From the UHGV virus genome UHGV-1970859: 23,107 nucleotides of DNA. The stretch is one strand, 5' to 3'. Of the stretch, positions 9,450 through 23,107 are shown in pieces (position 1 is the first letter of the stretch; the number at the start of each line of letters is the position of its first letter). The notes beneath the pieces are model-generated. The model ran no database searches. It saw only the letters and a program-made list of their open reading frames with translations, and was not told where the DNA came from. The translations under genes and the position numbers were made by a program. This DNA is from a virus.

Positions 9450-11201
9450 ATGATTCAGGACGCTTTTGTGCGCCAGCGTGCGCGGCAACTTTACTGGCAG
9501 GGTTATCCGCCCGCAGAAATATCACGTCTGATGGGAATAAACCCGAACACGATTTATGCGTGGAAAAAACGTGACCAGTGGGATGAAACGCCACCCGTGC
9601 AGCGTGTCACGCAGTCCATCGATGCGCGCCTCATCCAGCTTACTGAAAAACAGAATAAAACAGGCGGTGACTTTAAGGAAATAGACCTGCTGACCCGGCA
9701 GCTTAAAAAACTGCATGATGGCCAGCCGGATGCGACGGTCACAGGAAAGAAAGGCCGGGCGAAAAAACTCAAAAATCATTTCACGCCGGAACAGATTGCC
9801 GCACTGCGGGAAAAAATCATCAGCAGGCTGGAGTGGCATCAGCGGGGCTGGTTTGACTCCCTGACCCTTTGCAGGGAAGCCGGGATACGTAACAGGATGA
9901 TCCTGAAATCCCGACAGATTGGGGCAACCTGGTATTTTGCACAGGAAGCGCTGCTGATGGCGCTGCGTGACGATGTGGCGCAACCTTACCAGCGTAACCA
10001 GATTTTTTTGTCTGCGTCACGTCGTCAGGCGTTCCAGTTTAAAAGCATTATTCAGAAGGCCGCGGCTGAAGTTGATGTGGAGCTGAAAGGGGGCGATAAA
10101 ATCATCCTCTCCAACGGCGCAGAGCTGCATTTTCTCGGCACTTCTGCTGCGTCGGCACAGTCCTATACGGGCAATTTTTATTTTGATGAATTTTTCTGGG
10201 TCAGTCGCTTTGCTGAACTGCGCAAGGTGGCTGGCGCTATGGCAACCCTCAGCGGACTGCGGCGCACCTACTTCTCCACGCCATCCACCGAAACGCACGA
10301 GGCATACGCCTACTGGAACGGTGACCGCTGGAACGAGAAAAAGGCCTCGCATAAACGCCAGCGTTTTTCTGTGGACTGGAAAACGCTGCATAACGGGCTT
10401 ATCTGCCCTGACCGGACGTGGCGGCAAATTGTCACGCTGGAAGATGTGGTTAATCACGGCTGGAAACACACCGATATCGACGAAATTCGTGATGAAAACA
10501 CCGAAGACGAGTTCCTCAATCTCTATATGTGTGAATTTGTCCGCGAAGGGGAATCGGCATTTAACCTGAATATCCTGATTGGCTGCGGTGTTGACGGATA
10601 CGACGACTGGAAAGACTGGAAACCTTTTGCTCCCCGCCCGATGGGGAATCGTCCGGTATGGATTGGGTATGACGCAAACGGCAGCAGTGGAAACGGCGAC
10701 AGCGGCGCTGTGTCCGTGGTGGTTCCTCCGGCTGTTCCTGGTGGCCGTTTTCGAACGGTGGAGACGCGACGCGTTCAGGGGCTGGAGTTTGAAGAACAGG
10801 CCAGAGTCATTGAAGAGTTCACGTATCGCTACAACGTGGAACACATCGGCATTGATGTGACGGGCGGGAACGGGGAGGCTGTTTATCAGATAGTGAAACG
10901 GTTTTTCCCTGCTGCTATTCCGTACACCTTCACGCTGTCATCAAAACGGTCGCTGGTACTGAAAATGCTGCAAATAATGCGTGCCGGGCGGTGGGAATAC
11001 GATCGCGCCGAACGCGAGCTGGTCGCGGCCTTTAACGCCGTGCGTAAGGTGAAAACACCGGGCGGCTTTATCACTTACGAAACGGACCGCGCGAGGGGGA
11101 TCAGCCACGGCGACCTTGCGTGGGCAACCATGCTTGCTGTCATTAACGAACCGATTGGCGGCGAAGGAGAAAACGAGCGTTTCACGGTTATGGAGTTCTG
11201 A
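9450..11201 (+). CDS. P: Terminase large (ATPase) subunit gpP
   Basis: 583 aa. N-terminal RARQLYWQGYPPAEISRLMGINPNTIYAWKKRDQWDE and overall size match P2 gpP. Divergent from O as in P2. Confidence 0.95.
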   Translation: MIQDAFVRQRARQLYWQGYPPAEISRLMGINPNTIYAWKKRDQWDETPPVQRVTQSIDARLIQLTEKQNKTGGDFKEIDLLTRQLKKLHDGQPDATVTGKKGRAKKLKNHFTPEQIAALREKIISRLEWHQRGWFDSLTLCREAGIRNRMILKSRQIGATWYFAQEALLMALRDDVAQPYQRNQIFLSASRRQAFQFKSIIQKAAAEVDVELKGGDKIILSNGAELHFLGTSAASAQSYTGNFYFDEFFWVSRFAELRKVAGAMATLSGLRRTYFSTPSTETHEAYAYWNGDRWNEKKASHKRQRFSVDWKTLHNGLICPDRTWRQIVTLEDVVNHGWKHTDIDEIRDENTEDEFLNLYMCEFVREGESAFNLNILIGCGVDGYDDWKDWKPFAPRPMGNRPVWIGYDANGSSGNGDSGAVSVVVPPAVPGGRFRTVETRRVQGLEFEEQARVIEEFTYRYNVEHIGIDVTGGNGEAVYQIVKRFFPAAIPYTFTLSSKRSLVLKMLQIMRAGRWEYDRAERELVAAFNAVRKVKTPGGFITYETDRARGISHGDLAWATMLAVINEPIGGEGENERFTVMEF

Positions 11202-12247
11202 TGAGCAGAAAAAATAAAAAAGTGCGCATGAGTTCACGCATTGATCTCGCTGATGCGCTCAGGAAAGAATCATCGCTCAGTGCATTCACATTTGATGGTC
11301 CTTATCGCCTGACCGGGCATGACCTGCTGGACAATATGTACTGTGCTGATAACGGGCGGTGGTATGAAACCCCGGTGGACTGGTACGGTCTGGCAAGAGC
11401 TGCCCGGCAAACGTCCTGGCATCAGTCTGCGCTTTACTTTAAGCGCAATGTATTGCTCGGCTGCTATATTCCGCACCCGCTGCTTTCCCGGCAGGATTTC
11501 TCGGCGCTGGCGCTGGACTGGTTTGTGTTCGGTAACGCATTCCTTGAGCTTCGAAGCAATATGCTCGGCGAACCGCTTAAATTACGGCACGCCCTGGCGA
11601 AATACATGCGACGCGGAAGCGATCTTGAATCATGGTGGTATGTGCAGGATGGCAAGGACGCGTTCCAGTTTCGCCCTGGCAAAGTGTGCCACCTGATGAA
11701 TCCGGATATTAACCAGGAAATCTACGGCATGCCGGAATATCTTGGCGCATTACTCTCGGCCAGCCTGTCTCATTCGGCGGACATGTTCAGAAAACTGTAT
11801 TACGACAACGGATCCCACGCCGGGTGCATCATCTACATCGGTGCAGCGCAGGTAAACCGCGAAAGCATGGACTCCCTGAAAGAAACGCTACAGGGTGCAC
11901 GTGGTGGTGGTGCGTTTAAAAACGTGCTCATTCATGCGCCCAACGGGGGCAAAGAGGGGGTGCAAATTTTGCCGTTCCAGCAGATCACCGCAAAGGATGA
12001 GTTCATGAATGTTAAGGTGGCATCCCGTGATGATGTGCTGGCTGCGCACCGCGTTCCGCCGCAACTGATGGGGGCGATGCCGGGCGAAAAAAGTGCGTTT
12101 GGTGATGTGGAGAAGGCCGCGCGGGTTTACGCAATTAACGAGCTGATGCCCGTCATGGAGGCCATGAAGCACATCAATGACTGGCTTGGCGAAGAGGTGA
12201 TCCGCTTTAACCCTTACGCGCTGCTGGACACCCAGCCCACATCCTGA
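11201..12247 (+). CDS. Q: Portal protein gpQ
   Basis: 348 aa, start overlaps the P stop (TGATG). Size and position match P2 gpQ. Confidence 0.9.
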   Translation: MSRKNKKVRMSSRIDLADALRKESSLSAFTFDGPYRLTGHDLLDNMYCADNGRWYETPVDWYGLARAARQTSWHQSALYFKRNVLLGCYIPHPLLSRQDFSALALDWFVFGNAFLELRSNMLGEPLKLRHALAKYMRRGSDLESWWYVQDGKDAFQFRPGKVCHLMNPDINQEIYGMPEYLGALLSASLSHSADMFRKLYYDNGSHAGCIIYIGAAQVNRESMDSLKETLQGARGGGAFKNVLIHAPNGGKEGVQILPFQQITAKDEFMNVKVASRDDVLAAHRVPPQLMGAMPGEKSAFGDVEKAARVYAINELMPVMEAMKHINDWLGEEVIRFNPYALLDTQPTS

Positions 12248-12274
12248 CGCGCTTCGCTTGTCTGCTGCTTCGCC

Positions 12275-12297
12275 GGGGCATAAAAAATTTATGCCCC
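12275..12297. repeat. Perfect hairpin GGGGCATAAA-AAA-TTTATGCCCC just downstream of Q
   Basis: 10-bp perfect inverted repeat with a 3-nt loop, 28 bp after the Q stop. No flanking T tract, so not a classical intrinsic terminator. Lies in the region where P2 has its cos/packaging sequences. Confidence 0.4.
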
Positions 12298-12723
12298 GAC
12301 TCTCCAGCTCTTGTATCAATCAGATAATTTCACGACGCTTTCCTGCTTATTGCCATCATCGACAGTCAGACTCTTACGCAATCCCACCGCGTTGACTGCA
12401 TGTTCTCGCCGTCTCAGTGCGATTTTGACGGCCTTACCTTTCACCCCATCAAATCAAAAGCCCTCACGTCTTTTTCACGCTCAGCGTGAGAAAGACAGCC
12501 ATTCTGTTCTATCTCTGCGACATCGTTCAGGGAATGCTATTTACCCCCTGAAACGCGGGCTGTTCCCCCGTCACCTGCGCGCAGAAAAAACGCGTTTTTT
12601 TGTGCACGCACGGATCCTTGGCGGATCCAGCCACCACGCGGGCCGGAAGGGCAAAAAGTCGTTCAAAAAAATTGTGCAAATTTGTGCACAATCTTGCATT
12701 AAAATCAACGTTCAGTGGATGTA

Positions 12724-12752
12724 TTTAAGCGAAAAAAAGATCTTTGTATAAT
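12724..12752 (+). promoter_or_regulatory. Candidate sigma70 promoter for the toxin-antitoxin operon
   Basis: TATAAT at about 12747-12752 with TG immediately upstream and a weak -35 (TTTAAG) 17 bp away, about 30 bp upstream of the toxin start. Three TTGTGCA repeats lie upstream at about 12598, 12672 and 12682. Confidence 0.3.
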
Positions 12753-12783
12753 TTCGTTCGGTTACGTTGGTGAGAGGTTCTGA

Positions 12784-13185
12784 GTGAAAGACATCACATA
12801 TTGGAATGATAAAATTCAGAAACAAATTGATAGTTATCCTGAAGCCGTTCGAGAAAGGATAAATTTTGAGCTTGTTGCACTGCAGAGCGATTGTCCTCAT
12901 TCTTTCGACAGTTTCGATTTTCCAGTGGATGGTGATGATGCCTTGGGGGTTCCACCGGCTCAAAAAAAATCAATGCGGGAAACGATTGGTCGCTACGCAA
13001 TGCAATTAACCATCAAGAGTAGTGATTCTTATCGTATGATTTACGTTGCGAAATTTGCGGAGTCTGTTTACATACTTCATACATTTAAGAAAAAGACAAA
13101 TGGTGTGTCAAAAAAAGAATATGAGACAGCTGCCGCAAGATACAAACAATTAGTGGAGTATCGTCGTAAAAATGGCTTAAGATAG
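12784..13185 (+). CDS. Type II toxin, RelE/HigB superfamily (Gp49-like, DUF891-type)
   Basis: 133 aa, GTG start with GAGAGG upstream. C-terminal YRMIYVAKFAESVYILHTFKKKTNGVSKKEYETAAARYKQL is characteristic of Gp49-like toxins. Followed by an XRE-HTH gene (toxin-first order as in HigBA). AT-rich relative to flanking phage genes. Confidence 0.6.
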   Translation: MKDITYWNDKIQKQIDSYPEAVRERINFELVALQSDCPHSFDSFDFPVDGDDALGVPPAQKKSMRETIGRYAMQLTIKSSDSYRMIYVAKFAESVYILHTFKKKTNGVSKKEYETAAARYKQLVEYRRKNGLR

Positions 13186-13255
13186 CTTGCAGGTATCTCA
13201 AATCTGATATAACATAATCAATGTCAGCAACATCGCTGATTAAGGCTGGAGAGTT

Positions 13256-13573
13256 ATGGAATTCGTCGTAGTTAAAAACCCTTATGCGTCATCAAGTAGC
13301 TCTGTAAATGAAGCTAGTGATAAACACATCCGGGCCCAATTAATGGTTATTATCCGAAAAATGATTCAGGAGCGCGGTCTTACCCAGCGAGAAGCTGCTG
13401 AATTGCTGGAAACAACCCAACCAAGAGTAAGCGAAATCATTAATGGTAAGTTAGATAATCATACCATTGATCGACTGTTTATCATGCTAAACATCCTGGG
13501 GTGGGATTTTAAGTTTGGGTATTCCGGTGGGGTTGTTACTGCGACGGCAGAACATTCCTGTCAGGTTGCATAA
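13256..13573 (+). CDS. Antitoxin, HTH XRE family (HigA-like)
   Basis: 105 aa. LTQREAAELLETTQPRVSEIINGKLDNHTIDRLFIMLNILG is an HTH pattern typical of antitoxins paired with Gp49-like toxins. GGAG Shine-Dalgarno. Confidence 0.6.
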   Translation: MEFVVVKNPYASSSSSVNEASDKHIRAQLMVIIRKMIQERGLTQREAAELLETTQPRVSEIINGKLDNHTIDRLFIMLNILGWDFKFGYSGGVVTATAEHSCQVA

Positions 13574-13580
13574 ATATTAA

Positions 13581-13613
13581 GCCCCTGACGGGGCCAACCG
13601 TCAGGGGCTTTTC
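13581..13613 (+). terminator. Rho-independent terminator after the antitoxin gene
   Basis: GCCCCTGACGG-GGCCAA-CCGTCAGGGGC, an 11-bp perfect GC-rich stem followed by TTTTC, 8 bp after the stop codon. Confidence 0.7.
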
Positions 13614-13738
13614 AACACAAAGAAATGATAGTCTGAGAAATATCATCACCTTGATGTTTTGCATGTACAACTGTGATTCTAGTCAATCCAGGCAGATAAT
13701 CAAGGTAAAAATCATTCTCAGTAAGGAGGTGATTATGG

Positions 13739-13888
13739 ATGGCTTTGAAATCAATTGTAAAAAAACCGGCTCCGAAAGGATTTCGTTGGCAGTTTTGCCG
13801 ATACCGTAAGGTTCGTGGTGATTCTGGTCGAAAGCTGGATGCTCATGAGTATGGCTGGAAAGCTTGGGCGTTTCTAGTGCGAAGCTGA
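13739..13888 (+). CDS. Small basic hypothetical protein (49 aa)
   Basis: Below the ORF-track size cutoff. Strong AGGAGG Shine-Dalgarno at 13724-13729. Own translation: MALKSIVKKPAPKGFRWQFCRYRKVRGDSGRKLDAHEYGWKAWAFLVRS. Has its own terminator hairpin 13 nt downstream. An alternative 24-aa frame starts at 13735. Confidence 0.35.
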   Translation: MALKSIVKKPAPKGFRWQFCRYRKVRGDSGRKLDAHEYGWKAWAFLVRS

Positions 13889-13901
13889 TATTTGATATTT
13901 A

Positions 13902-13925
13902 AAAGCATGGCGAAAGCCATGCTTT
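13902..13925. terminator. Bidirectional intrinsic terminator between the small ORF (plus) and parR (minus)
   Basis: AGCATGGC-GAAA-GCCATGCT, an 8-bp stem with a GNRA-type loop, T-rich on both sides. A second hairpin ATTCAGG-N8-CCTGAAT at about 13934-13955 is followed by TTCTTTTTTA. Confidence 0.55.
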
Positions 13926-13931
13926 TTGTGA

Positions 13932-14246
13932 TCATTCAGGAAAAAATTCCTGAATATTCTTTTTTATTTGACTTATATTCTGATTTTTGCAACCAACAGG
14001 CTCGCTGTTATGCCAGCCCCATATGTGATTGTTGGCAGGCATATTTTCCCCCTCTGACCATTCAGCCAGCCAGTAAGCAAAGGCAGGATCGTTTTTAATG
14101 AGTGCCAGTCCAGCCAGAAATGCCGCGCGTTGCGCGCGGCTGCGTTCGGAGGCTGGCAGGCTGTCGAGATAATTACACGCTTCCCGTTCACTCTTGACTG
14201 CAGCTGGCTTCAGATAGAAACTTATCCGTCTGGTTGGTGTCGTCAT
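13932..14246 (-). CDS. parR: ParR-like RHH centromere-binding adaptor
   Basis: Track ORF 13932..14381. Likely start is MTTPTRRISFYLKPAAV at 14246, with an AAGGAG Shine-Dalgarno inside the parM 3' end. N-terminal RRISFYLKP...YLDSLPASERSRAQRAAFLAGLALIKNDP resembles R1 ParR (RRTIAFKLNP...TLDSIPQGERSRLNRAALTAGLALYRQDP) as recalled from memory. Confidence 0.6.
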   Translation of the reverse strand: MTTPTRRISFYLKPAAVKSEREACNYLDSLPASERSRAQRAAFLAGLALIKNDPAFAYWLAEWSEGENMPANNHIWGWHNSEPVGCKNQNISQIKKNIQEFFPE

Positions 14247-14250
14247 TGGT

Positions 14251-15210
14251 TTACTCCTTGTCCATTGCGTACAGCCCATTAACCAGAGCAAACTGTGGCA
14301 CCCCGTCCGCGATGAAAGTCGCATTAACTCCGCAGGCTTCGCGGATAGCGGGGGCCACAATCTCCGCCCCGCCACCGACAACCATCACCCGCCCGTAACC
14401 CGAAAAACCCGCCAGCGCGCGGATCACGCGTTGTTTCAGTGTTTCTTCCTTTTCACGAATAACCGCCATCAGGCTGGCGTAATGCGCGTCATTGTGGATG
14501 TGCTGGCGCAGCCAGGCTTCATCATGGCGATGTTCGATAATGGTATTGGCGATGTGGTGACTGGTACGCATACCGTTAGTGGCCATCACCGACAGTACGG
14601 CATCGGCCATCAGGGAAACGCCTACGTGTGGATCGCAAAACACCTGGCTGATACCTACCAGTTGTCCCTGAACCTTTGCCACATCCAGCGTGGTTCCGCC
14701 TAAATCCACAATCAGCAGGGATTCAAACGGACTCATGTCAGCCAGTGCTTTAAAACCAGCCGGAATGGATTCAGGCATAACCCGTACGTTACGGATAGTG
14801 AATGCTTTTCCGTTCTGGTACGCCACCGGGCGCATGACGTTTGCTTTTTTGCGGTTGATGTTGGCCATGTCCGGCTGTGCGTTTGTGTCGAAATATTCGC
14901 TCAGTGGCAGGGTGACAACCACATCCACTTCCTGTGGTGTGATGCCTGATTTGACCAGCGCGTGATGAATGGCAATGACATTCACATCGCTGTACTGGTA
15001 TTGCGTGTCGGTCGTCTGGACAAAGCGATCGCTGACCGGATCAAAACCATAGCGCACGCCATCAAGCATGTAGTTTGCGGGCTGCGTGCCACCGAACGGC
15101 GCAGACCATTCCGACTTGAAGCTGTTCGGGCTGATGGCGTTGCGGCGTTCGCCGTTCTCAGTCCATGCCAGCTTGATGTTGGTGGAGCCGTCATCGATAC
15201 AAATTTTCAT
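14251..15210 (-). CDS. parM: ParM/StbA-family actin-like segregation ATPase
   Basis: 319 aa. MKICIDDGSTNIKLAW, ISPNSFKSEW, YSDVNVIAIHHAL, VMPESIPAG, LLIVDLGGTTLD, FSGYGRVMVVGGGAE and LVNGLYAM match the R1 ParM motifs (phosphate 1, adenosine and phosphate 2 elements of the actin fold), as recalled from memory. Confidence 0.85.
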   Translation of the reverse strand: MKICIDDGSTNIKLAWTENGERRNAISPNSFKSEWSAPFGGTQPANYMLDGVRYGFDPVSDRFVQTTDTQYQYSDVNVIAIHHALVKSGITPQEVDVVVTLPLSEYFDTNAQPDMANINRKKANVMRPVAYQNGKAFTIRNVRVMPESIPAGFKALADMSPFESLLIVDLGGTTLDVAKVQGQLVGISQVFCDPHVGVSLMADAVLSVMATNGMRTSHHIANTIIEHRHDEAWLRQHIHNDAHYASLMAVIREKEETLKQRVIRALAGFSGYGRVMVVGGGAEIVAPAIREACGVNATFIADGVPQFALVNGLYAMDKE

Positions 15211-15240
15211 GTCGCTTTTCCTTATGTTGATTAATTAATC

Positions 15241-15278
15241 GTTTACGGGATTCTGAAATCCCGTTTTTGCCTGTTTTA
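15241..15278. repeat. Repeat unit 1 containing the 20-bp palindrome ACGGGATT-CTGA-AATCCCGT (about 15245-15264)
   Basis: Lies in the 76-bp gap between the A stop and the parM start, so within the parM promoter/leader region. Confidence 0.5.
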
Positions 15279-15286
15279 TGCGCGCT

Positions 15287-18154
15287 TCATATATCGCGGC
15301 GCGTTTTTTGCTCATTTACGGGATTTGTGAATCCCGTTTCTGTCTGTTTTTTGTTTCCACTGGTCAGGCCACCCCGCAGCAGGTCTGCTTTGCGGCGGGC
15401 GCGTTCAGTGGTTTCACTGATTCTCTGTGCGTGCTCTGCGTCGCGGATGGCGCGCAGCATGTCAGAAAGCACGGTAACGGGTGTTTTCATGGTGTTCTGG
15501 TCTTGCTGAAGTGTGGATGCCAGGCGTGCGGCGGCTTCGGGGTCTGATGCCCCCAGCTGTTCCAGATAGCTGGCGACCGGGTTATGGCGGATCTCCGTGC
15601 TGCTTACGCCGTGGTTACGGCTCAGGCGCTGCCAGAGCTGCGTGATCCGGCTGTCCGGTCTGGTATCCGGTTTGCGTACAATTTCAAATCCCTGCGGTGC
15701 AATGATGCTGCCGTCAACGTACAGACTGCCGCCCCGTAACAGGTGCTGCATCTGTTGTTCACCGATATGCAGGCCGAGAGATTCAGCAGACTCCCGCCAT
15801 TCTTTAGCGAGTAATTCGTGGTTATCAGGCAAAGGCCGCTGCTGTTTGCGGCTCTGTGTCCAGCTCTGCATTTCATCACTGCTGTTTTTTGCCTGTTTGT
15901 CACGAAGCGAACGCATCAGCGCCCGGCGTTCGTGCCGTTTCAGTGAGCGCATCCATTCGTTCACTTCAACGCCGTCAGGGAGCTGCGGCCACGGTGCTGG
16001 CCGTTCTTCCGGCTGTTCTGTCCCGTTGTTGTCCGTTTCCTGTACACGGGGACAGTTATTGCCACGAGTCCAAGGGGCGGCAGGGCCGCCCTGAAGGTCA
16101 AAACCATTTTCGCGGGCGCTGTCTTCCGCTTCCGGTTTGCGTCTTACCAGCTTCCAGTTATCCGGATGCGTGCATACGCGGGAAGACTCCCCAATGAGCG
16201 GCGACCAGATCCCGTAAATCTGTACACTCTGCTCGCCGTAATCGTTCAGCTCATCTGCGAGGTCGTAGGCTGTGCGAATCAGGTAGTCCTTGCGCGGAAC
16301 AAGTACGCCACCCTGTTTTTCAATGTAGGTGGCAAAACATCCGGCATCAGCGGCAGCGAGTACCGCATCCATTGCGTCATCCTTCAGCCGTTGCGGGCCT
16401 TCCGGGTTGCGTGCCATCTGGCTGGCAAGGCGGCGGAGTTCACGCCACACCTGACGGGAGGGGATGCCAAAGAACTGGAACTGGCGGACCCGGTGAAGGC
16501 GCGCCCAGCCGATGGCACGCTCCACGCTCTCGGCCATTGATTTACCTGTTTCGTGGTCAACGCGTGGCTTGCCCGTTTTCGGGTCGATGCCATCCACGGC
16601 ACGGCTGTCCAGGTTTTTCCCGATGTAGGTGGCGATGTAGCTGGTCGGTGTGCCTTTTGAGCCGTCGACGTACTCTGCCTTAAAGCGTGGGGTAATATCA
16701 TCACCCAGCTCGTGACGATCTTCCTGAATGGCAATATCGCGGGTGTGGGACACAATGGTGTCGATTTCTTCCGGATGAGCAAAGACCATCATATGCCAGT
16801 GCACGGTGCCGTCATGGTGAGGCTCCACCGTGCGGATGCCATACCAGCGCAGGCCGTCGCGGTTCAGTTTCTTGCGGACTGCCGCAAAAAACGTGTTAAC
16901 CAGGTAATCGCTGGAGTCGCGCATGGTGGCCCCGTTCCATTTGGGATTCTGATGACCGTTCTCTGTTGTGGCGTGGTATTTTGACGGGCAGGTGACAGTC
17001 AGAAACACCGCTTTGTCGCCACGGGCTTCGGCCAGAAGTTCCAGTCCCTTCATGGTGGCCATCATTTCTGCCTTACGGTGAACCGGGTTACTTACTCCCG
17101 CGTAATACACTGTCTCGAGATCAATCGTGAACCCGTCTTCATTTTCCAGCATGAAACTTTTCAGGAAATCGCGTGTTTTCTCGCGCTGTGCGCGAAACTC
17201 GCTTAACGCGTCCTGGCTCAGATAAGGCGATGTTTTTCTGGAAACCAGACAGGCGGCGCGGAGTTGTTCTTCTCTCCACTCGCAACGTAACAGCCACAGT
17301 TTGCGTTTCCACCATTCCGCACAGGTCAGGCGAAGGATTGCACCCGGCAGCAGCTCTGTGTCCGGTTCGTTCCTCCGGTCTTTGTCTGTTGTCAGTACGT
17401 CATAATGCGGAGGCATGGCGTGCAGGTGTAACGCCATGCGGGCCAGCATCTGATACGCCTTCAGGGTTACATCCATGGTCAGCTCGCCATCGGTCGCGCC
17501 AAAGCCATCGCAGAGTTTTTCGAAGGTGCTGCTGAACATCGCCGCCGTCATGGTGGCCAGCGTCTGTATCTGGTGTTTGTTGAGCTGCGGCAGGTAAAGC
17601 AAATCGTCCAGGCGCTCGCGTCCGGCAAGGGAGCGATAACCCGGTGTCAGCCAGCGTCCGTCAGTGCGATCCAGACGTTCGAATATTTTGCGCAGGGTTC
17701 CGCGTGCATAGCGTTCCGCCTGCCAGTTCTTTTTGCCTTTCTGACGATCGGCTTCCTGCTTCTTGCGCAGAAAAGAGAGGTGGCGGCTCAGAGGTTCACG
17801 CAGATAAACGGGAAGCACCTTCAGTGTGGCAAAAGCACGGGCCACCGGGTCTTGTTCTGTTGCCTGACGCTTGCTGATGATGCTTTGTGTCAGCTTTTCA
17901 CGCTGTCCGGCTTCCTCAAGGGATGCCATGAGTTTTTTACCCACGGTGGATTGTGCGAAAAAGGCTTCCTCCTTCGCTTCCTGTTCTTCCAGGGCCTTTT
18001 TGTCTGCTTCAAGGTAGTAACGGATGGCGCGTTGCAGGTCGGTTTCAGTTTCCTGCCTGCGCTCCGTAAATCTGGCCGGATCAATGGCTGGCCGTGGTTC
18101 ATTCCAGCTCCATGCAAACTCACTCATGGCTGGTATCCCGTCACGTGCTGCCAC
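15287..18154 (-). CDS. A: Replication initiation protein gpA (HUH rolling-circle endonuclease)
   Basis: 955-aa ORF. [21 protein letters not shown] (HUH motif) and [13 protein letters not shown] (paired catalytic tyrosines) resemble P2 gpA ([35 protein letters not shown]). Track start is GTG at 18154; an ATG at 18127 is coupled (ATGA) to the upstream gene stop and may be the true start. Confidence 0.9.
   Translation of the reverse strand: [955 protein letters not shown]
15313..15351. repeat. Repeat unit 2 containing the palindrome ACGGGATT-TGTG-AATCCCGT (about 15318-15337)
   Basis: Near-identical to unit 1 including flanks (TTTACGGGATT...AATCCCGTTT.TG.CTGTTTT), 73 bp away. Lies within the last codons of A. 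Confidence 0.5.
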
Positions 18155-22105: not shown

Positions 22106-23107
22106 ATGTCGGTTCGTAAGATTCCATCAGGTAAATGGCTTTGCGAATGTTATCCCTACGGGGCATCGGGAAAACGCATTCGTAAACAGTTTGCGACAAA
22201 AAGTGAGGCGCTCTCTTATGAGCGCCGTTTAATGAATAGTAGAGTTGGAGAGGAGTTTCAAGATGGTTCTGGTCCTCGTCTTTCTGAGTTGATTGCTCGT
22301 TGGTTTGAGATGTACGGTAAAACCTTGTCCTCTGGTGCAGAGCGCAAAGTCAAACTTGAGGCGATTTGTTCCAGGCTGGGAGATCCATTTGCTTCTCAGT
22401 TTGACAAAAATATGTTTGCTACTTATAGGGAAAGAAGGCTATCAGGAGAATGGAATCCCAAGAGGAAGAAAAAACTTAGTGAAGCAACCGTTAATCGCGA
22501 GCAGTCATATCTACATGCTGTTTTTGCCGAACTGAAGCGACTTGGGGAGTGGTCTGGTGAAAACCCCCTGACTGGTATTCGCAAGTTTCGTGAGGAAGAA
22601 AAGGAACTGGCGTTTCTGTATGTAGATGAGATTGAACGCCTTCTGATTGCGTGTGATGAGTCACGGAATAAAGATTTGGGGGTTGTTGTCCGTATTGGGC
22701 TTGCGACTGGTGCTCGGTGGAGTGAAGCAGAAGGATTAAAGCAATCTCAAGTACTGCCCGGTCGAATCACATTTGTTAAAACTAAAGGAAAGAAGAACCG
22801 CACTGTACCGATTTCACCTCAATTGCAGGCTATGCTTCCTAAAAAACGAGGAGCGCTATTTTCACCATGTTATGAGGCTTTTGACGCTGCAATTAAGAGA
22901 GCGAAGATCGAGCTTCCTGATGGGCAATTAACTCATGTGCTACGTCACACTTTTGCCAGTCATTTTATGATGCGGGGCGGAAATATTCTTGTGTTGCAAA
23001 AAATACTGGGGCATAGCGATATAAAAATGACTATGCGTTATGCGCATTTTGCTCCAGGTCATTTAGAGGCTGCTGTTGAATTGAACCCTTTTGACAATAG
23101 AGGGTAA
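22106..23107 (+). CDS. int: Tyrosine integrase (P2 Int family)
   Basis: 333 aa. C-terminal catalytic signature HVLRHTFASHFMMRGGNILVLQKILGHSDIKMTMRYAHF (R-H-R-Y). Terminal position at the end of the lysogenic operon. Stop codon is the last codon of the window. Confidence 0.95.
   Translation: MSVRKIPSGKWLCECYPYGASGKRIRKQFATKSEALSYERRLMNSRVGEEFQDGSGPRLSELIARWFEMYGKTLSSGAERKVKLEAICSRLGDPFASQFDKNMFATYRERRLSGEWNPKRKKKLSEATVNREQSYLHAVFAELKRLGEWSGENPLTGIRKFREEEKELAFLYVDEIERLLIACDESRNKDLGVVVRIGLATGARWSEAEGLKQSQVLPGRITFVKTKGKKNRTVPISPQLQAMLPKKRGALFSPCYEAFDAAIKRAKIELPDGQLTHVLRHTFASHFMMRGGNILVLQKILGHSDIKMTMRYAHFAPGHLEAAVELNPFDNRG

What the first reader, a model, noticed from the sequence alone, without database searches (positions are those of the whole stretch)
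12598..13613. Self-contained HigB/Gp49-like toxin and XRE antitoxin module with upstream TTGTGCA iterons
Toxin-first operon (133 aa then 105 aa HTH) with a plausible promoter, three TTGTGCA repeats upstream (two at 10-bp spacing, candidate antitoxin operator) and a strong terminator (11-bp GC stem plus T tract). Toxin-antitoxin modules at phage defence hotspots frequently act as abortive-infection systems or stabilise the prophage.
Basis: partly seen in the sequence, partly recalled or inferred. Interest (0 to 1): 0.5.

Follow-up and report, generated by a model that had tools for sequence, protein, structure and literature searches.

The report
HigB-like toxin–antitoxin cargo in prophage
This is an ordinary, divergent HigB/Gp49-type toxin–antitoxin gene pair carried as rare cargo in the known variable spot of a P2-family E. 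coli prophage; the "iterons" proposed as its operator belong to the phage backbone, and a small conserved third gene next to it is the less expected part.

Summary

The pair is AT-rich cargo (about 12711-14051) in the cos-proximal gpQ-gpA hotspot of a P88-like prophage. It occurs in 2 of 5426 complete E. coli genomes, while the backbone occurs in more than 1100.

The TTGTGCA repeats are not the operator. They are invariant in relatives with other cargo or none, and absent upstream of five homologous modules. A better candidate is an 18-bp palindrome in the toxin-antitoxin spacer (13194-13211), conserved in 10 of 12 loci.

The "terminator" hairpin has only four T's on the + strand. It belongs to a separately conserved unit: hairpin, covarying leader, and an unannotated 49-aa gene (13739-13888). 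That unit also follows XRE+ImmA pairs elsewhere.

The toxin subfamily replaces the E-x-R catalytic motif with Q-x-T, so toxicity is inferred, not shown. Verdict: a new member of a known kind, low to moderate interest.

The parts
12598..12710 (.). NOT part of the module. This is conserved cos-proximal backbone of P88-like phages and carries the TTGTGCA repeats (12600, 12672, 12682), the palindrome AAAAAACGCGTTTTTT (12585-12600) and GGATCC..GGATCC.
   Evidence: Invariant in 7 relatives with different or no cargo (alignment A1). Backbone identity ends at 12710. The linear record NC_049391 ends at about window 12653.
12711..14051 (.). Variable cargo segment of the hotspot: TA pair, small-ORF unit and the divergent 3' end of parR.
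   Evidence: Similarity to P88 and more than 1100 E. coli prophages stops at 12710 and resumes at about 14051-14058. GC is 37-44% against 50-58% in the flanks.
12747..12752 (+). Candidate -10 (TATAAT) of the toxin promoter. The window-specific palindrome AAAGATCTTT (12736-12745) sits in the spacer and the SD GAGAGG is at 12772-12777.
   Evidence: TGTATAAT/TGTATGAT/GGTATAAT/TGTATACT is conserved 32-37 nt before the start codon in L090, L091, L095 and L099. It is not called by the consensus scan.
12784..13185 (+). Toxin gene, 133 aa, Gp49/HigB-like RelE-fold protein with an acidic disordered insert (residues about 35-59).
13187..13215 (+). Conserved spacer element: -35-like TTGCAG (13187-13192), imperfect 18-bp palindrome TATCTCAAATCTGATATA (13194-13211), and -10-like TATAAC/TAACAT. 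Candidate antitoxin operator and internal antitoxin promoter.
   Evidence: Conserved in 10 of 12 homologous loci and a perfect 20-bp palindrome in Photorhabdus L098. Within each TA locus and its 200-nt flanks, the half-site TTGATAT occurs outside the spacer only once, as a second copy at the toxin 3' end of L099.
13224..13239 (+). Small hairpin TCAGCAACATCGCTGA just upstream of the antitoxin SD (TAAGGCTGGAGAG, 13242-13254).
   Evidence: A hairpin at the same position has different stem sequences in L090, L091, L105 and L106. Its role is inferred.
13256..13573 (+). Antitoxin gene, 105 aa, HTH_37 (XRE-type) DNA-binding protein.
   Evidence: PF13744 E=7.7e-19 and PF01381 E=7.6e-8. PDB 2a6c E=2.8e-11. 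A homologue follows the toxin homologue on the same strand in 75 of 80 distant genomic loci (L008-L087), and in the 3 distant viral loci.
13579..13610 (.). Hairpin H1, 13-bp perfect stem. It is a likely bidirectional terminator and marks the 5' edge of the small-ORF unit.
   Evidence: It is homologous, with a conserved GGCGCCAACC-type loop, in loci where the upstream genes are XRE+ImmA instead of the TA. The T tract is better on the minus strand in the loci examined.
13611..13738 (+). Conserved structured leader. Helix H2 pairs 13624-13630 with 13641-13647. The long-range helix pairs 13633-13639 with 13715-13721 and abuts the SD AAGGAGG (13722-13728). Helix P2 pairs 13649-13655 with 13699-13705.
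   Evidence: 90.9% of cells are paired. Ten pairs have changes on both sides against 5.2±1.3 in shuffles (0/500). Slid controls give 31-49%.
13676..13703 (-). Promoter-like site on the minus strand (TTGATT-16-TAGAAT). It would give an antisense RNA of about 100 nt ending at H1.
   Evidence: By my reading of alignment A5, TTGAnn-16/17-TAnnnT recurs in all eight loci read (one lacks the final T), and the 'TA' is invariant inside an otherwise variable stretch. The predicted RNA folds at -39.4 kcal/mol, z=-5.9. No expression data.
13739..13888 (+). Unannotated 49-aa basic protein gene (MALKSIVKKPAPKGFRWQFCRYRKVRG...).
   Evidence: phrog_33859 E=4.8e-24. 26 of 49 residues are invariant in 13 homologues. 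Substitutions number 111/78/275 at codon positions 1/2/3. In every locus recovered it lies downstream of a Gp49+HTH_37 or an XRE+M78 pair.

Best explanation
The locus is a type II toxin-antitoxin pair of the Gp49/HigB-HTH_37 (tad-ata-like) kind. It is carried as rare, horizontally acquired cargo in the cos-proximal gpQ-gpA variable hotspot of a P88-like (Xuanwuvirus, P2-family) E. coli prophage.

Inferred mechanism:
- The 133-aa toxin is a RelE-fold, ribosome-dependent mRNA endonuclease.
- The 105-aa HTH antitoxin neutralises it by direct binding and represses transcription.
- When antitoxin synthesis stops or the antitoxin is degraded (phage takeover, or loss of the element), free toxin arrests translation and growth.

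The TTGTGCA repeats are a conserved element of the phage backbone next to the presumptive cos end, not the operator. The best operator candidate is the conserved palindrome in the 70-nt toxin-antitoxin spacer. It overlaps a weak promoter-like site that could transcribe the antitoxin independently of the toxin.

Shown here: family membership, fold, gene order, cargo boundaries, backbone origin of the repeats, and conservation of the spacer palindrome.

Inferred only: RNase activity, toxicity and neutralisation, operator function, and any defence or stabilisation phenotype.
For: - Family: Pfam Gp49 E=3.2e-13 and HTH_37 E=7.7e-19. A 93-sequence profile hits S. pneumoniae HigB at E=9.7e-6.
- Residues: K62, R84, H99, F101 and K103 are conserved in at least 90% of 93 relatives. 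R84, F101 and K103 map to S. pneumoniae R73, F90 and K92, equivalent to Mtb R77, F93 and K95 (PMC9098466).
- Synteny: an antitoxin homologue lies immediately downstream on the same strand in 75 of 80 distant genomic loci, and in the 3 distant viral loci.
- Precedent: toxin-first Gp49+HTH_37 is an established TA configuration of ribosome-dependent mRNases (PMC7157771, PMC11980606, PMC5906591).
- Cargo status. Hotspot identity: and PMC9122126.
- Repeats are backbone.
- Spacer palindrome.
Against: - The subfamily replaces two residues of the canonical Gp49 catalytic pocket. The E-x-R motif (E in 60 of 69 and R in 54 of 69 distant relatives; Mtb HigB1 E66/R68, whose R68A mutant is non-toxic) is Q74-x-T/S76 in all 24 subfamily members. 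Some Gp49 toxins (Mtb HigB2, HigB3) are non-toxic (PMC9098466).
- No NCBIfam model matches the toxin.
- PADLOC matches are weak (NsnC E=0.0026; PDC-M64C E=5e-5), so a defence role rests on location only.
- The window's copy of the spacer palindrome is the most degenerate (7 of 9 pairs). The internal promoter is weak by consensus and was not called by the scan.
- In the studied Gp49 system of A. baumannii no internal antitoxin promoter was detected (PMC5906591).
Confidence: 0.75

Rival explanations
1. First reader's version. The module is self-contained at 12598-13613, and the three TTGTGCA repeats are the antitoxin's operator or iterons.
For: The repeats exist, two of them at helical (10-bp) spacing, and one forms the 10-bp palindrome TTGTGCACAA about 100 nt upstream of the toxin start.
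Against: The repeats are invariant in P88, Chuche, Shae_phiSM, 503458 and UTI89, and in the empty-hotspot prophage of TUM9757, none of which has this TA. Six of the seven relatives even have a third tandem copy that is degraded in the window. TTGTGCA is absent from -300..-1 of five homologous TA loci with 72-90% identical antitoxins. The cargo junction is at 12710, downstream of all the repeats.
Confidence: 0.04
2. Three-gene system. The toxin, the antitoxin and the 49-aa protein act together. The small gene would be the third cistron, reached by read-through of hairpin H1 and further gated by its structured leader and an antisense RNA. It would therefore be expressed when the HTH repressor is lost, as an output or effector of derepression. 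The XRE+ImmA versions would work the same way, with repressor cleavage as the trigger.
For: In all 25 loci recovered (about 18 sequence-distinct), the small ORF lies after a Gp49+HTH_37 or an XRE+Peptidase_M78 pair, and wherever measured the gap was 129-176 nt after the stop codon. It travels with the TA in P2-like phages in both orientations relative to the portal (window, L090, L099), and in islands and at prophage ends (L104-L111). I found no conserved + strand promoter by eye in the leader. H1 has a short T tract on the + strand. The protein is under strong purifying selection.
Against: The TA occurs without the small gene in 4 of 10 complete, sequence-distinct loci: lambdoid prophages, the Photorhabdus chromosome and a Rep3 plasmid. 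The two kinds of upstream module are not homologous, so the linkage may reflect a shared insertion niche. There are no expression or interaction data, and the small protein has no detectable homologue of known function.
Confidence: 0.3
3. The 'toxin' is catalytically attenuated, and the pair acts mainly as a transcriptional regulatory complex (corepressor plus HTH) rather than as a growth-arrest module.
For: The E-x-R catalytic motif is replaced by Q-x-T/S throughout the subfamily. Mtb HigB2 and HigB3 of the same Pfam family are non-toxic (PMC9098466). The toxin acts as corepressor in the A. baumannii Gp49 system (PMC5906591).
Against: K62, R84, H99, F101, K103 and K104 are strictly conserved in the subfamily, and K78 is conserved on the same strand near the lost arginine. 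The strict toxin-antitoxin linkage is as expected for a poison-antidote pair.
Confidence: 0.15
4. The pair serves mainly as an addiction or stabilisation module for the element, complementing the adjacent ParM/ParR partition genes, rather than as anti-phage defence. This is not exclusive of the best explanation.
For: It sits next to parR-parM. Gp49-family modules of N15 and pAMI2 stabilise replicons (Dziewit 2007, cited in PMC5906591). One relative lies on a small Rep3/ParA plasmid.
Against: ParMR is backbone in more than 1100 prophages, while the TA is in 2 of 5426 genomes. 1307 of 1308 backbone matches are chromosomal. The site is a documented defence hotspot (PMC9122126).
Confidence: 0.25

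Closest known systems
Gp49/HTH_37 'tad-ata'-type type II TA modules (Paracoccus pAMI2 tad-ata, phage N15 gp49-gp48, SXT; Tn3-family Gp49-HTH_37 pairs)
   Same: Same Pfam families for both partners, toxin-first order, small sizes, and carriage on phages, plasmids and transposons (PMC7157771; PMC5906591).
   Different: The toxin is only about 27-47% identical to mainstream Gp49 proteins. It carries an acidic insert of 15-30 residues and Q-x-T in place of E-x-R. A 64-81-nt spacer holds a conserved palindrome.
Mycobacterium tuberculosis HigB1 (Rv1955, TAC toxin; PDB 7nbu/7awk)
   Different: 15% identity. There is no SecB-like chaperone gene here. The counterparts of E66 and R68 are substituted, and the alpha2-beta2 loop is expanded and acidic.
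Streptococcus pneumoniae HigBA (PDB 6af3/6af4)
   Same: The only PDB sequence hit for the toxin family (E=9.7e-6 with profile A4) and the top Foldseek hit. Its partner is an HTH antitoxin.
   Different: Only the C-terminal 40 residues align by sequence. The antitoxin match to its HigA is insignificant (E=0.98).
Acinetobacter baumannii HigBA2 (pAB120)
   Same: A Gp49 toxin followed by an HTH antitoxin. The antitoxin autorepresses and the toxin acts as corepressor (PMC5906591).
   Different: There the operator and promoter lie upstream of the toxin and no antitoxin promoter was detected. Here the only conserved palindrome lies between the two genes.
P2 old/tin locus and the gpA-gpQ defence hotspot of P2-like phages (Rousset et al. 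2022)
   Same: Same cos-proximal position between the portal and replication genes, with highly variable AT-rich cargo (PMC9122126).
   Different: This cargo was not found in that paper's text or supplements. P88-like phages also have parM-parR between gpA and the cargo.
Type I TA loci with a 5'-leader antisense RNA (hok/sok-like). This is a comparison for the small-ORF unit only.
   Same: A small ORF behind a structured leader with a long-range helix next to the SD. A convergent promoter-like site and a terminator could give an antisense RNA of about 100 nt over the leader.
   Different: The 49-aa protein is basic and not hydrophobic. There is no Rfam match. No evidence exists for the RNA or for toxicity. 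The unit always sits behind an HTH-containing gene pair.

Membership tests
Gp49/HigB-type type II toxin (RelE/ParE superfamily) | Sequence match to the Gp49 profile (PF05973) above the curated cut-off | tested here: met
   Score 50.0 against a cut-off of 23.9, E=3.2e-13, covering residues 58-121. An exhaustive HMM search finds 1612 relatives at E<=0.001. The stronger full-length hits aligned are ordinary Gp49-type toxins of about 100-150 aa.
Gp49/HigB-type type II toxin (RelE/ParE superfamily) | RelE fold: N-terminal strand and helices, antiparallel beta-sheet, long C-terminal helix | tested here: met
Gp49/HigB-type type II toxin (RelE/ParE superfamily) | Catalytic pocket residues (Mtb HigB1 K58, E66, R68, R77, K95 and equivalents) | tested here: inconclusive
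   K62, R84, F101 and K103 are conserved, but the E-x-R motif is Q74-x-T/S76 in all 24 subfamily members. K78 is invariant in the 20 closest (PMC9098466).
Gp49/HigB-type type II toxin (RelE/ParE superfamily) | Toxicity on expression, with ribosome-dependent mRNA cleavage | not testable with these tools
   Needs expression and in vitro translation or cleavage assays.
Type II TA operon (HigBA / tad-ata organisation) | Toxin gene immediately followed by a cognate HTH antitoxin gene on the same strand, conserved across relatives | tested here: met
   HTH_37 E=7.7e-19. The antitoxin homologue lies downstream on the same strand in 75 of 80 distant genomic loci (L008-L087), in the 3 distant viral loci and in all close loci.
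Type II TA operon (HigBA / tad-ata organisation) | Autoregulatory operator bound by the antitoxin at the module's own promoter | tested here: inconclusive
   The proposed TTGTGCA operator fails, because it is backbone and absent from homologous loci. A conserved palindrome in the spacer is a candidate. Binding is untested.
Type II TA operon (HigBA / tad-ata organisation) | Antitoxin neutralises the toxin by direct binding | not testable with these tools
   No complex prediction or assay was available.
Anti-phage defence system (abortive infection) of the P2 gpA-gpQ hotspot | Location in the variable cos-proximal hotspot, with different cargo in related prophages | tested here: met
   Cargo differs in P88, Chuche, Shae_phiSM, UTI89 and 503458, and is absent in TUM9757. 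The hotspot is defined in PMC9122126.
Anti-phage defence system (abortive infection) of the P2 gpA-gpQ hotspot | Match to a known defence-system protein model | tested here: not met
   PADLOC gives only weak partial hits (NsnC E=0.0026; PDC-M64C E=5.4e-5; capH E=0.039).
Anti-phage defence system (abortive infection) of the P2 gpA-gpQ hotspot | Protection against phage infection | not testable with these tools
   Needs plaque and growth-curve assays.
Type I TA (small toxin plus cis-antisense RNA): considered for the 49-aa unit | Small hydrophobic or membrane toxin | tested here: not met
   The protein is basic (K/R-rich) with no hydrophobic helix (sequence).
Type I TA (small toxin plus cis-antisense RNA): considered for the 49-aa unit | Antisense RNA gene overlapping the mRNA leader | tested here: inconclusive
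   A conserved minus-strand promoter-like site and a minus-strand terminator are present. There are no transcript data and no Rfam family.

The most novel reading that the evidence does not exclude
The most novel reading concerns the unannotated 49-aa basic protein gene (13739-13888) together with hairpin H1, its covarying structured leader and a putative antisense RNA of about 100 nt. This would be an uncharacterised, tightly gated output cassette that plugs in behind HTH-repressor modules of two unrelated kinds (Gp49-HTH_37 TA pairs and XRE-ImmA/M78 pairs). The window's locus would then be a three-component system: loss of the repressor or antitoxin would release both the HigB-like toxin and a new small effector.
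Probability: 0.25. Interest if true: 0.6.

Novelty: new member of a known kind. Interest (0 to 1): 0.3.

Why it matters
As a toxin-antitoxin pair the locus adds little. It is one more HigB/Gp49-type module among the many cargoes of the P2-family cos-proximal hotspot.

It is useful in three narrower ways:
- It shows that short repeats next to a cargo gene can be phage backbone, here a cos-flanking element. Comparison with empty or differently loaded hotspots settles that quickly.
- This toxin subfamily combines an acidic loop insert, loss of the E-x-R catalytic motif, and a palindrome between toxin and antitoxin genes. That makes it a convenient case for asking how toxin-first operons keep antitoxin in excess.
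- The neighbouring, strongly conserved 49-aa gene with a covarying leader is unannotated and uncharacterised. It recurs behind two different repressor-containing modules in enterobacterial prophages, and it is the part worth an experiment.

Tried and rejected
- NCBIfam gave no model for the toxin and only sub-threshold hits for the antitoxin.
- phmmer of the toxin against PDB found nothing meaningful. The shallow 21-sequence profile gave only E=0.039.
- The first AF2 run, with 21 close homologues, was unusable (pLDDT 54). A 93-sequence alignment fixed this.
- The genome-contig scan returned only distant (28-54% identical) Gp49 loci. These were useful for synteny but not for regulatory comparison.
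- The phage collection holds no close toxin relative.
- Searching for the P2 cos sequence recalled from memory gave no match, so cos is only inferred from the end of a linear record.
- Rfam search of 12200-14300 gave only sub-threshold noise.
- The window-specific palindrome AAAGATCTTT in the toxin promoter spacer is not conserved in homologues, so I did not adopt it as operator.
- An anti-SD pairing (ATCATCACCT with AGGTGAT) in the small-ORF leader is not conserved in the ImmA-linked copies, so I dropped it.
- The leader-pattern scan of viral contigs found only loci already known. In metagenomes 54 of 70 pattern matches were unrelated sequences.
- The idea that the TTGTGCA repeats are the ParR centromere was not pursued. 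The region upstream of parM has its own repeats.
- Literature and supplement searches for the RefSeq accessions found nothing.
Full report
**Context.** The window is a P2-family prophage, reversed relative to the P2 map.
- Terminase is at 9450-11201 and portal gpQ at 11201-12247 (both +). ParR is at 13932-14246 and ParM at 14251-15210 (both -).
- Replication protein gpA is at 15287-18154 (-), and an integrase gene starts at 22106.
- The closest relatives are P88-like phages (genus Xuanwuvirus) and many E. coli prophages.
- The finding lies between gpQ and gpA next to cos. Rousset et al. described this position as a hotspot of anti-phage cargo in P2-like phages (PMC9122126).

**Observation check.**
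- Both ORFs exist as described. RefSeq annotates them as a RelE/ParE-family toxin and an HTH protein in a 98.8%-identical E. coli chromosome.
- TTGTGCA occurs at 12600, 12672 and 12682. The word is not enriched in the window as a whole (6 found, 5.84 expected).
- The promoter scan calls nothing upstream of the toxin. A perfect TATAAT at 12747-12752 is conserved in position in 5 of the 6 homologous loci compared, all but Photorhabdus L098.
- The hairpin at 13579-13610 has a 13-bp perfect stem (-29 kcal/mol, z=-6.2). Only four T's follow it on the + strand, and the scan scores it as a minus-strand terminator.

**Cargo boundaries and the repeats.**
- BLAST against P88 and more than 1100 E. coli genomes shows backbone identity (91-98%) from the portal through 12710. 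It resumes at about 14051-14058 inside parR.
- The stretch between is 37-44% GC against 50-58% in the flanks.
- The TA DNA is present in only 2 of 5426 complete E. coli genomes.
- All three TTGTGCA copies lie in the backbone part.
- In an eight-way alignment they are invariant in phages whose hotspot carries other genes (P88, Chuche, Shae_phiSM, 503458, UTI89) or nothing (TUM9757). Six of the seven relatives have a third tandem copy that is degraded in the window.
- TTGTGCA is absent from the 300 nt upstream of five homologous TA modules whose antitoxins are 72-90% identical.
- The repeats are therefore a phage-backbone element. They flank the point where the linear record of phage P88_4B11 ends (about window 12653), so they are probably cos-associated. 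Their function is unexplained.

**The toxin.**
- Pfam places the 133-aa protein in Gp49 (PF05973; score 50 against cut-off 23.9).
- Close homologues form a small clade: 22 clusters at 47-99% identity from Escherichia, Enterobacter, Salmonella and Photorhabdus. All have a variable acidic insert between helix 2 and strand 2.
- An exhaustive profile search shows only about five full-length 50%-identity clusters below E=1e-26. Scores then drop steeply to weaker, often partial matches, which on alignment are ordinary Gp49-type proteins of about 100-150 aa.
- With a 93-sequence alignment AlphaFold gives a confident model (pLDDT 82). Its order is strand, two helices, a disordered acidic loop (35-59), four strands, then a long C-terminal helix.
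- The profile alignment to S. pneumoniae HigB maps R84, F101 and K103 onto its R73, F90 and K92, equivalent to Mtb R77, F93 and K95 (PMC9098466). These positions are conserved in at least 90% of relatives.
- One caveat matters. The E-x-R motif of mainstream Gp49 toxins (E66/R68 in HigB1; R68A abolishes toxicity) is Q74-x-T/S76 in every member of this subfamily. Lysine 78 is invariant in the 20 closest members.
- Activity is therefore plausible but not assured.

**The antitoxin and the pairing.**
- The 105-aa protein is an HTH_37/XRE protein (E=7.7e-19; PDB 2a6c E=2.8e-11).
- In 75 of 80 distant genomic loci (toxins 28-54% identical) a homologue of it lies just downstream of the toxin homologue on the same strand. 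The same holds in the 3 distant viral loci and in all close loci.
- Toxin-first Gp49+HTH_37 pairs are an established type II TA configuration of ribosome-dependent mRNases (PMC7157771, PMC11980606, PMC5906591).

**Regulation.**
- Within each homologous TA locus and its 200-nt flanks, the one conserved palindrome lies in the 64-81-nt spacer between the two genes, not upstream of the toxin.
- In the window it is TATCTCAAATCTGATATA (13194-13211), preceded by TTGCAG. It is conserved in 10 of 12 loci and is a perfect 20-bp palindrome in Photorhabdus.
- Its half-site TTGATAT occurs outside the spacer only once, as a second copy at the toxin 3' end of L099.
- The two most divergent loci have other repeats in a longer spacer.
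- I infer that this is the antitoxin's operator. It overlaps a weak internal promoter that would uncouple antitoxin from toxin transcription.
- A small hairpin (13224-13239), whose stem sequence differs between loci, sits just before the antitoxin SD.
- None of this was tested. In the A. baumannii Gp49 system no internal promoter was detected (PMC5906591).

**The neighbouring unit.**
- A 49-aa ORF (13739-13888; strong SD; phrog_33859 E=5e-24) is unannotated in RefSeq.
- It is clearly coding. 26 of 49 residues are invariant in 13 homologues, and substitutions fall 111/78/275 on codon positions 1/2/3.
- It accompanies this TA in three different P2-like phages, in both orientations relative to the portal. 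It also accompanies it in an island-like contig (L104, two integrases), next to the integrase at a Serratia prophage end, and in Pantoea loci.
- It is missing from TA copies in lambdoid prophages, the Photorhabdus chromosome and a Rep3 plasmid.
- Searching from the small protein or from its leader finds it in only two settings: behind this TA, or behind an unrelated XRE + Peptidase_M78 (ImmA-like) pair. Wherever measured the distance was 129-176 nt.
- The shared DNA begins exactly at hairpin H1.
- TA copies without the small gene end in a different hairpin.
- The leader contains helices supported by covariation. 90.9% of cells are paired. Ten pairs show changes on both sides against 5.2±1.3 in shuffles. 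Slid controls give 31-49%.
- One long-range helix ends right at the SD.
- A minus-strand promoter-like site (TTGATT-16-TAGAAT) recurs as TTGAnn-16/17-TAnnnT in all eight loci I read from alignment A5 (one lacks the final T). H1 has the better T tract on the minus strand.
- The predicted antisense RNA of about 100 nt folds into two hairpins (-39.4 kcal/mol, z=-5.9).
- No Rfam family, PDB relative or Pfam family matches.
- Whether this is a third component of the TA or a separately gated cassette is open.

**Verdict.**
- The finding is a real toxin-antitoxin pair and a new, divergent member of a well-known family. It sits in a known defence hotspot and is rare among E. coli genomes.
- The operator proposal is wrong, and the terminator and 'self-contained' claims need qualification.
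- A defence or stabilisation role is inferred from position only, since PADLOC gives no convincing match.
- The more unusual feature lies just outside the reported coordinates: the conserved small gene with its structured leader.

Noticed in passing
window 13579-13888: An unannotated, highly conserved 49-aa basic protein gene has a covarying structured leader, a candidate antisense RNA and a shared hairpin. The unit recurs behind either Gp49+HTH_37 pairs or XRE+Peptidase_M78 pairs in enterobacterial prophages and was never found alone in 25 loci.
   Followed up: partly
window 12585-12700: TTGTGCA repeats (three or four copies, tandem at 10-bp spacing in relatives), the palindrome AAAAAACGCGTTTTTT and GGATCC..GGATCC are invariant backbone of P88-like phages. 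They flank the end of the linear genome record NC_049391 (about 12653). They are probably cos or terminase-related, but their function is unknown.
   Followed up: partly
window 13194-13211 and 13224-13239: A conserved palindrome plus hairpin lies in the toxin-antitoxin spacer of this TA subfamily. It suggests an internal operator and antitoxin promoter, which is unusual for Gp49-type modules studied so far.
   Followed up: partly
window 12784-13185 (residues 74-78): The whole toxin subfamily has Q-x-T/S-x-K where mainstream Gp49 toxins have the catalytic E-x-R, and it also has an acidic loop insert of variable length (residues about 35-59).
   Followed up: partly
window 15239-15324: Upstream of parM there are two ATCCCGTAAA repeats and the palindrome GGGATTTCAGAATCCC. 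These are a candidate parC centromere and promoter for the phage's ParMR partition system, which is conserved in more than 1100 chromosomally integrated prophages.
   Followed up: no
L088 4865-5428 and L090 4979-5482 (relatives; absent from the window at about 12228-12237): Some relatives carry an extra 167-187-aa gene on the opposite strand between the portal stop codon and the cos region. This is a second small insertion point next to the hotspot.
   Followed up: no
window 13735-13741: Two start codons four bases apart (ATGGATG) are conserved in all homologous loci. Only the second frame (the 49-aa protein) is conserved at the protein level.
   Followed up: no
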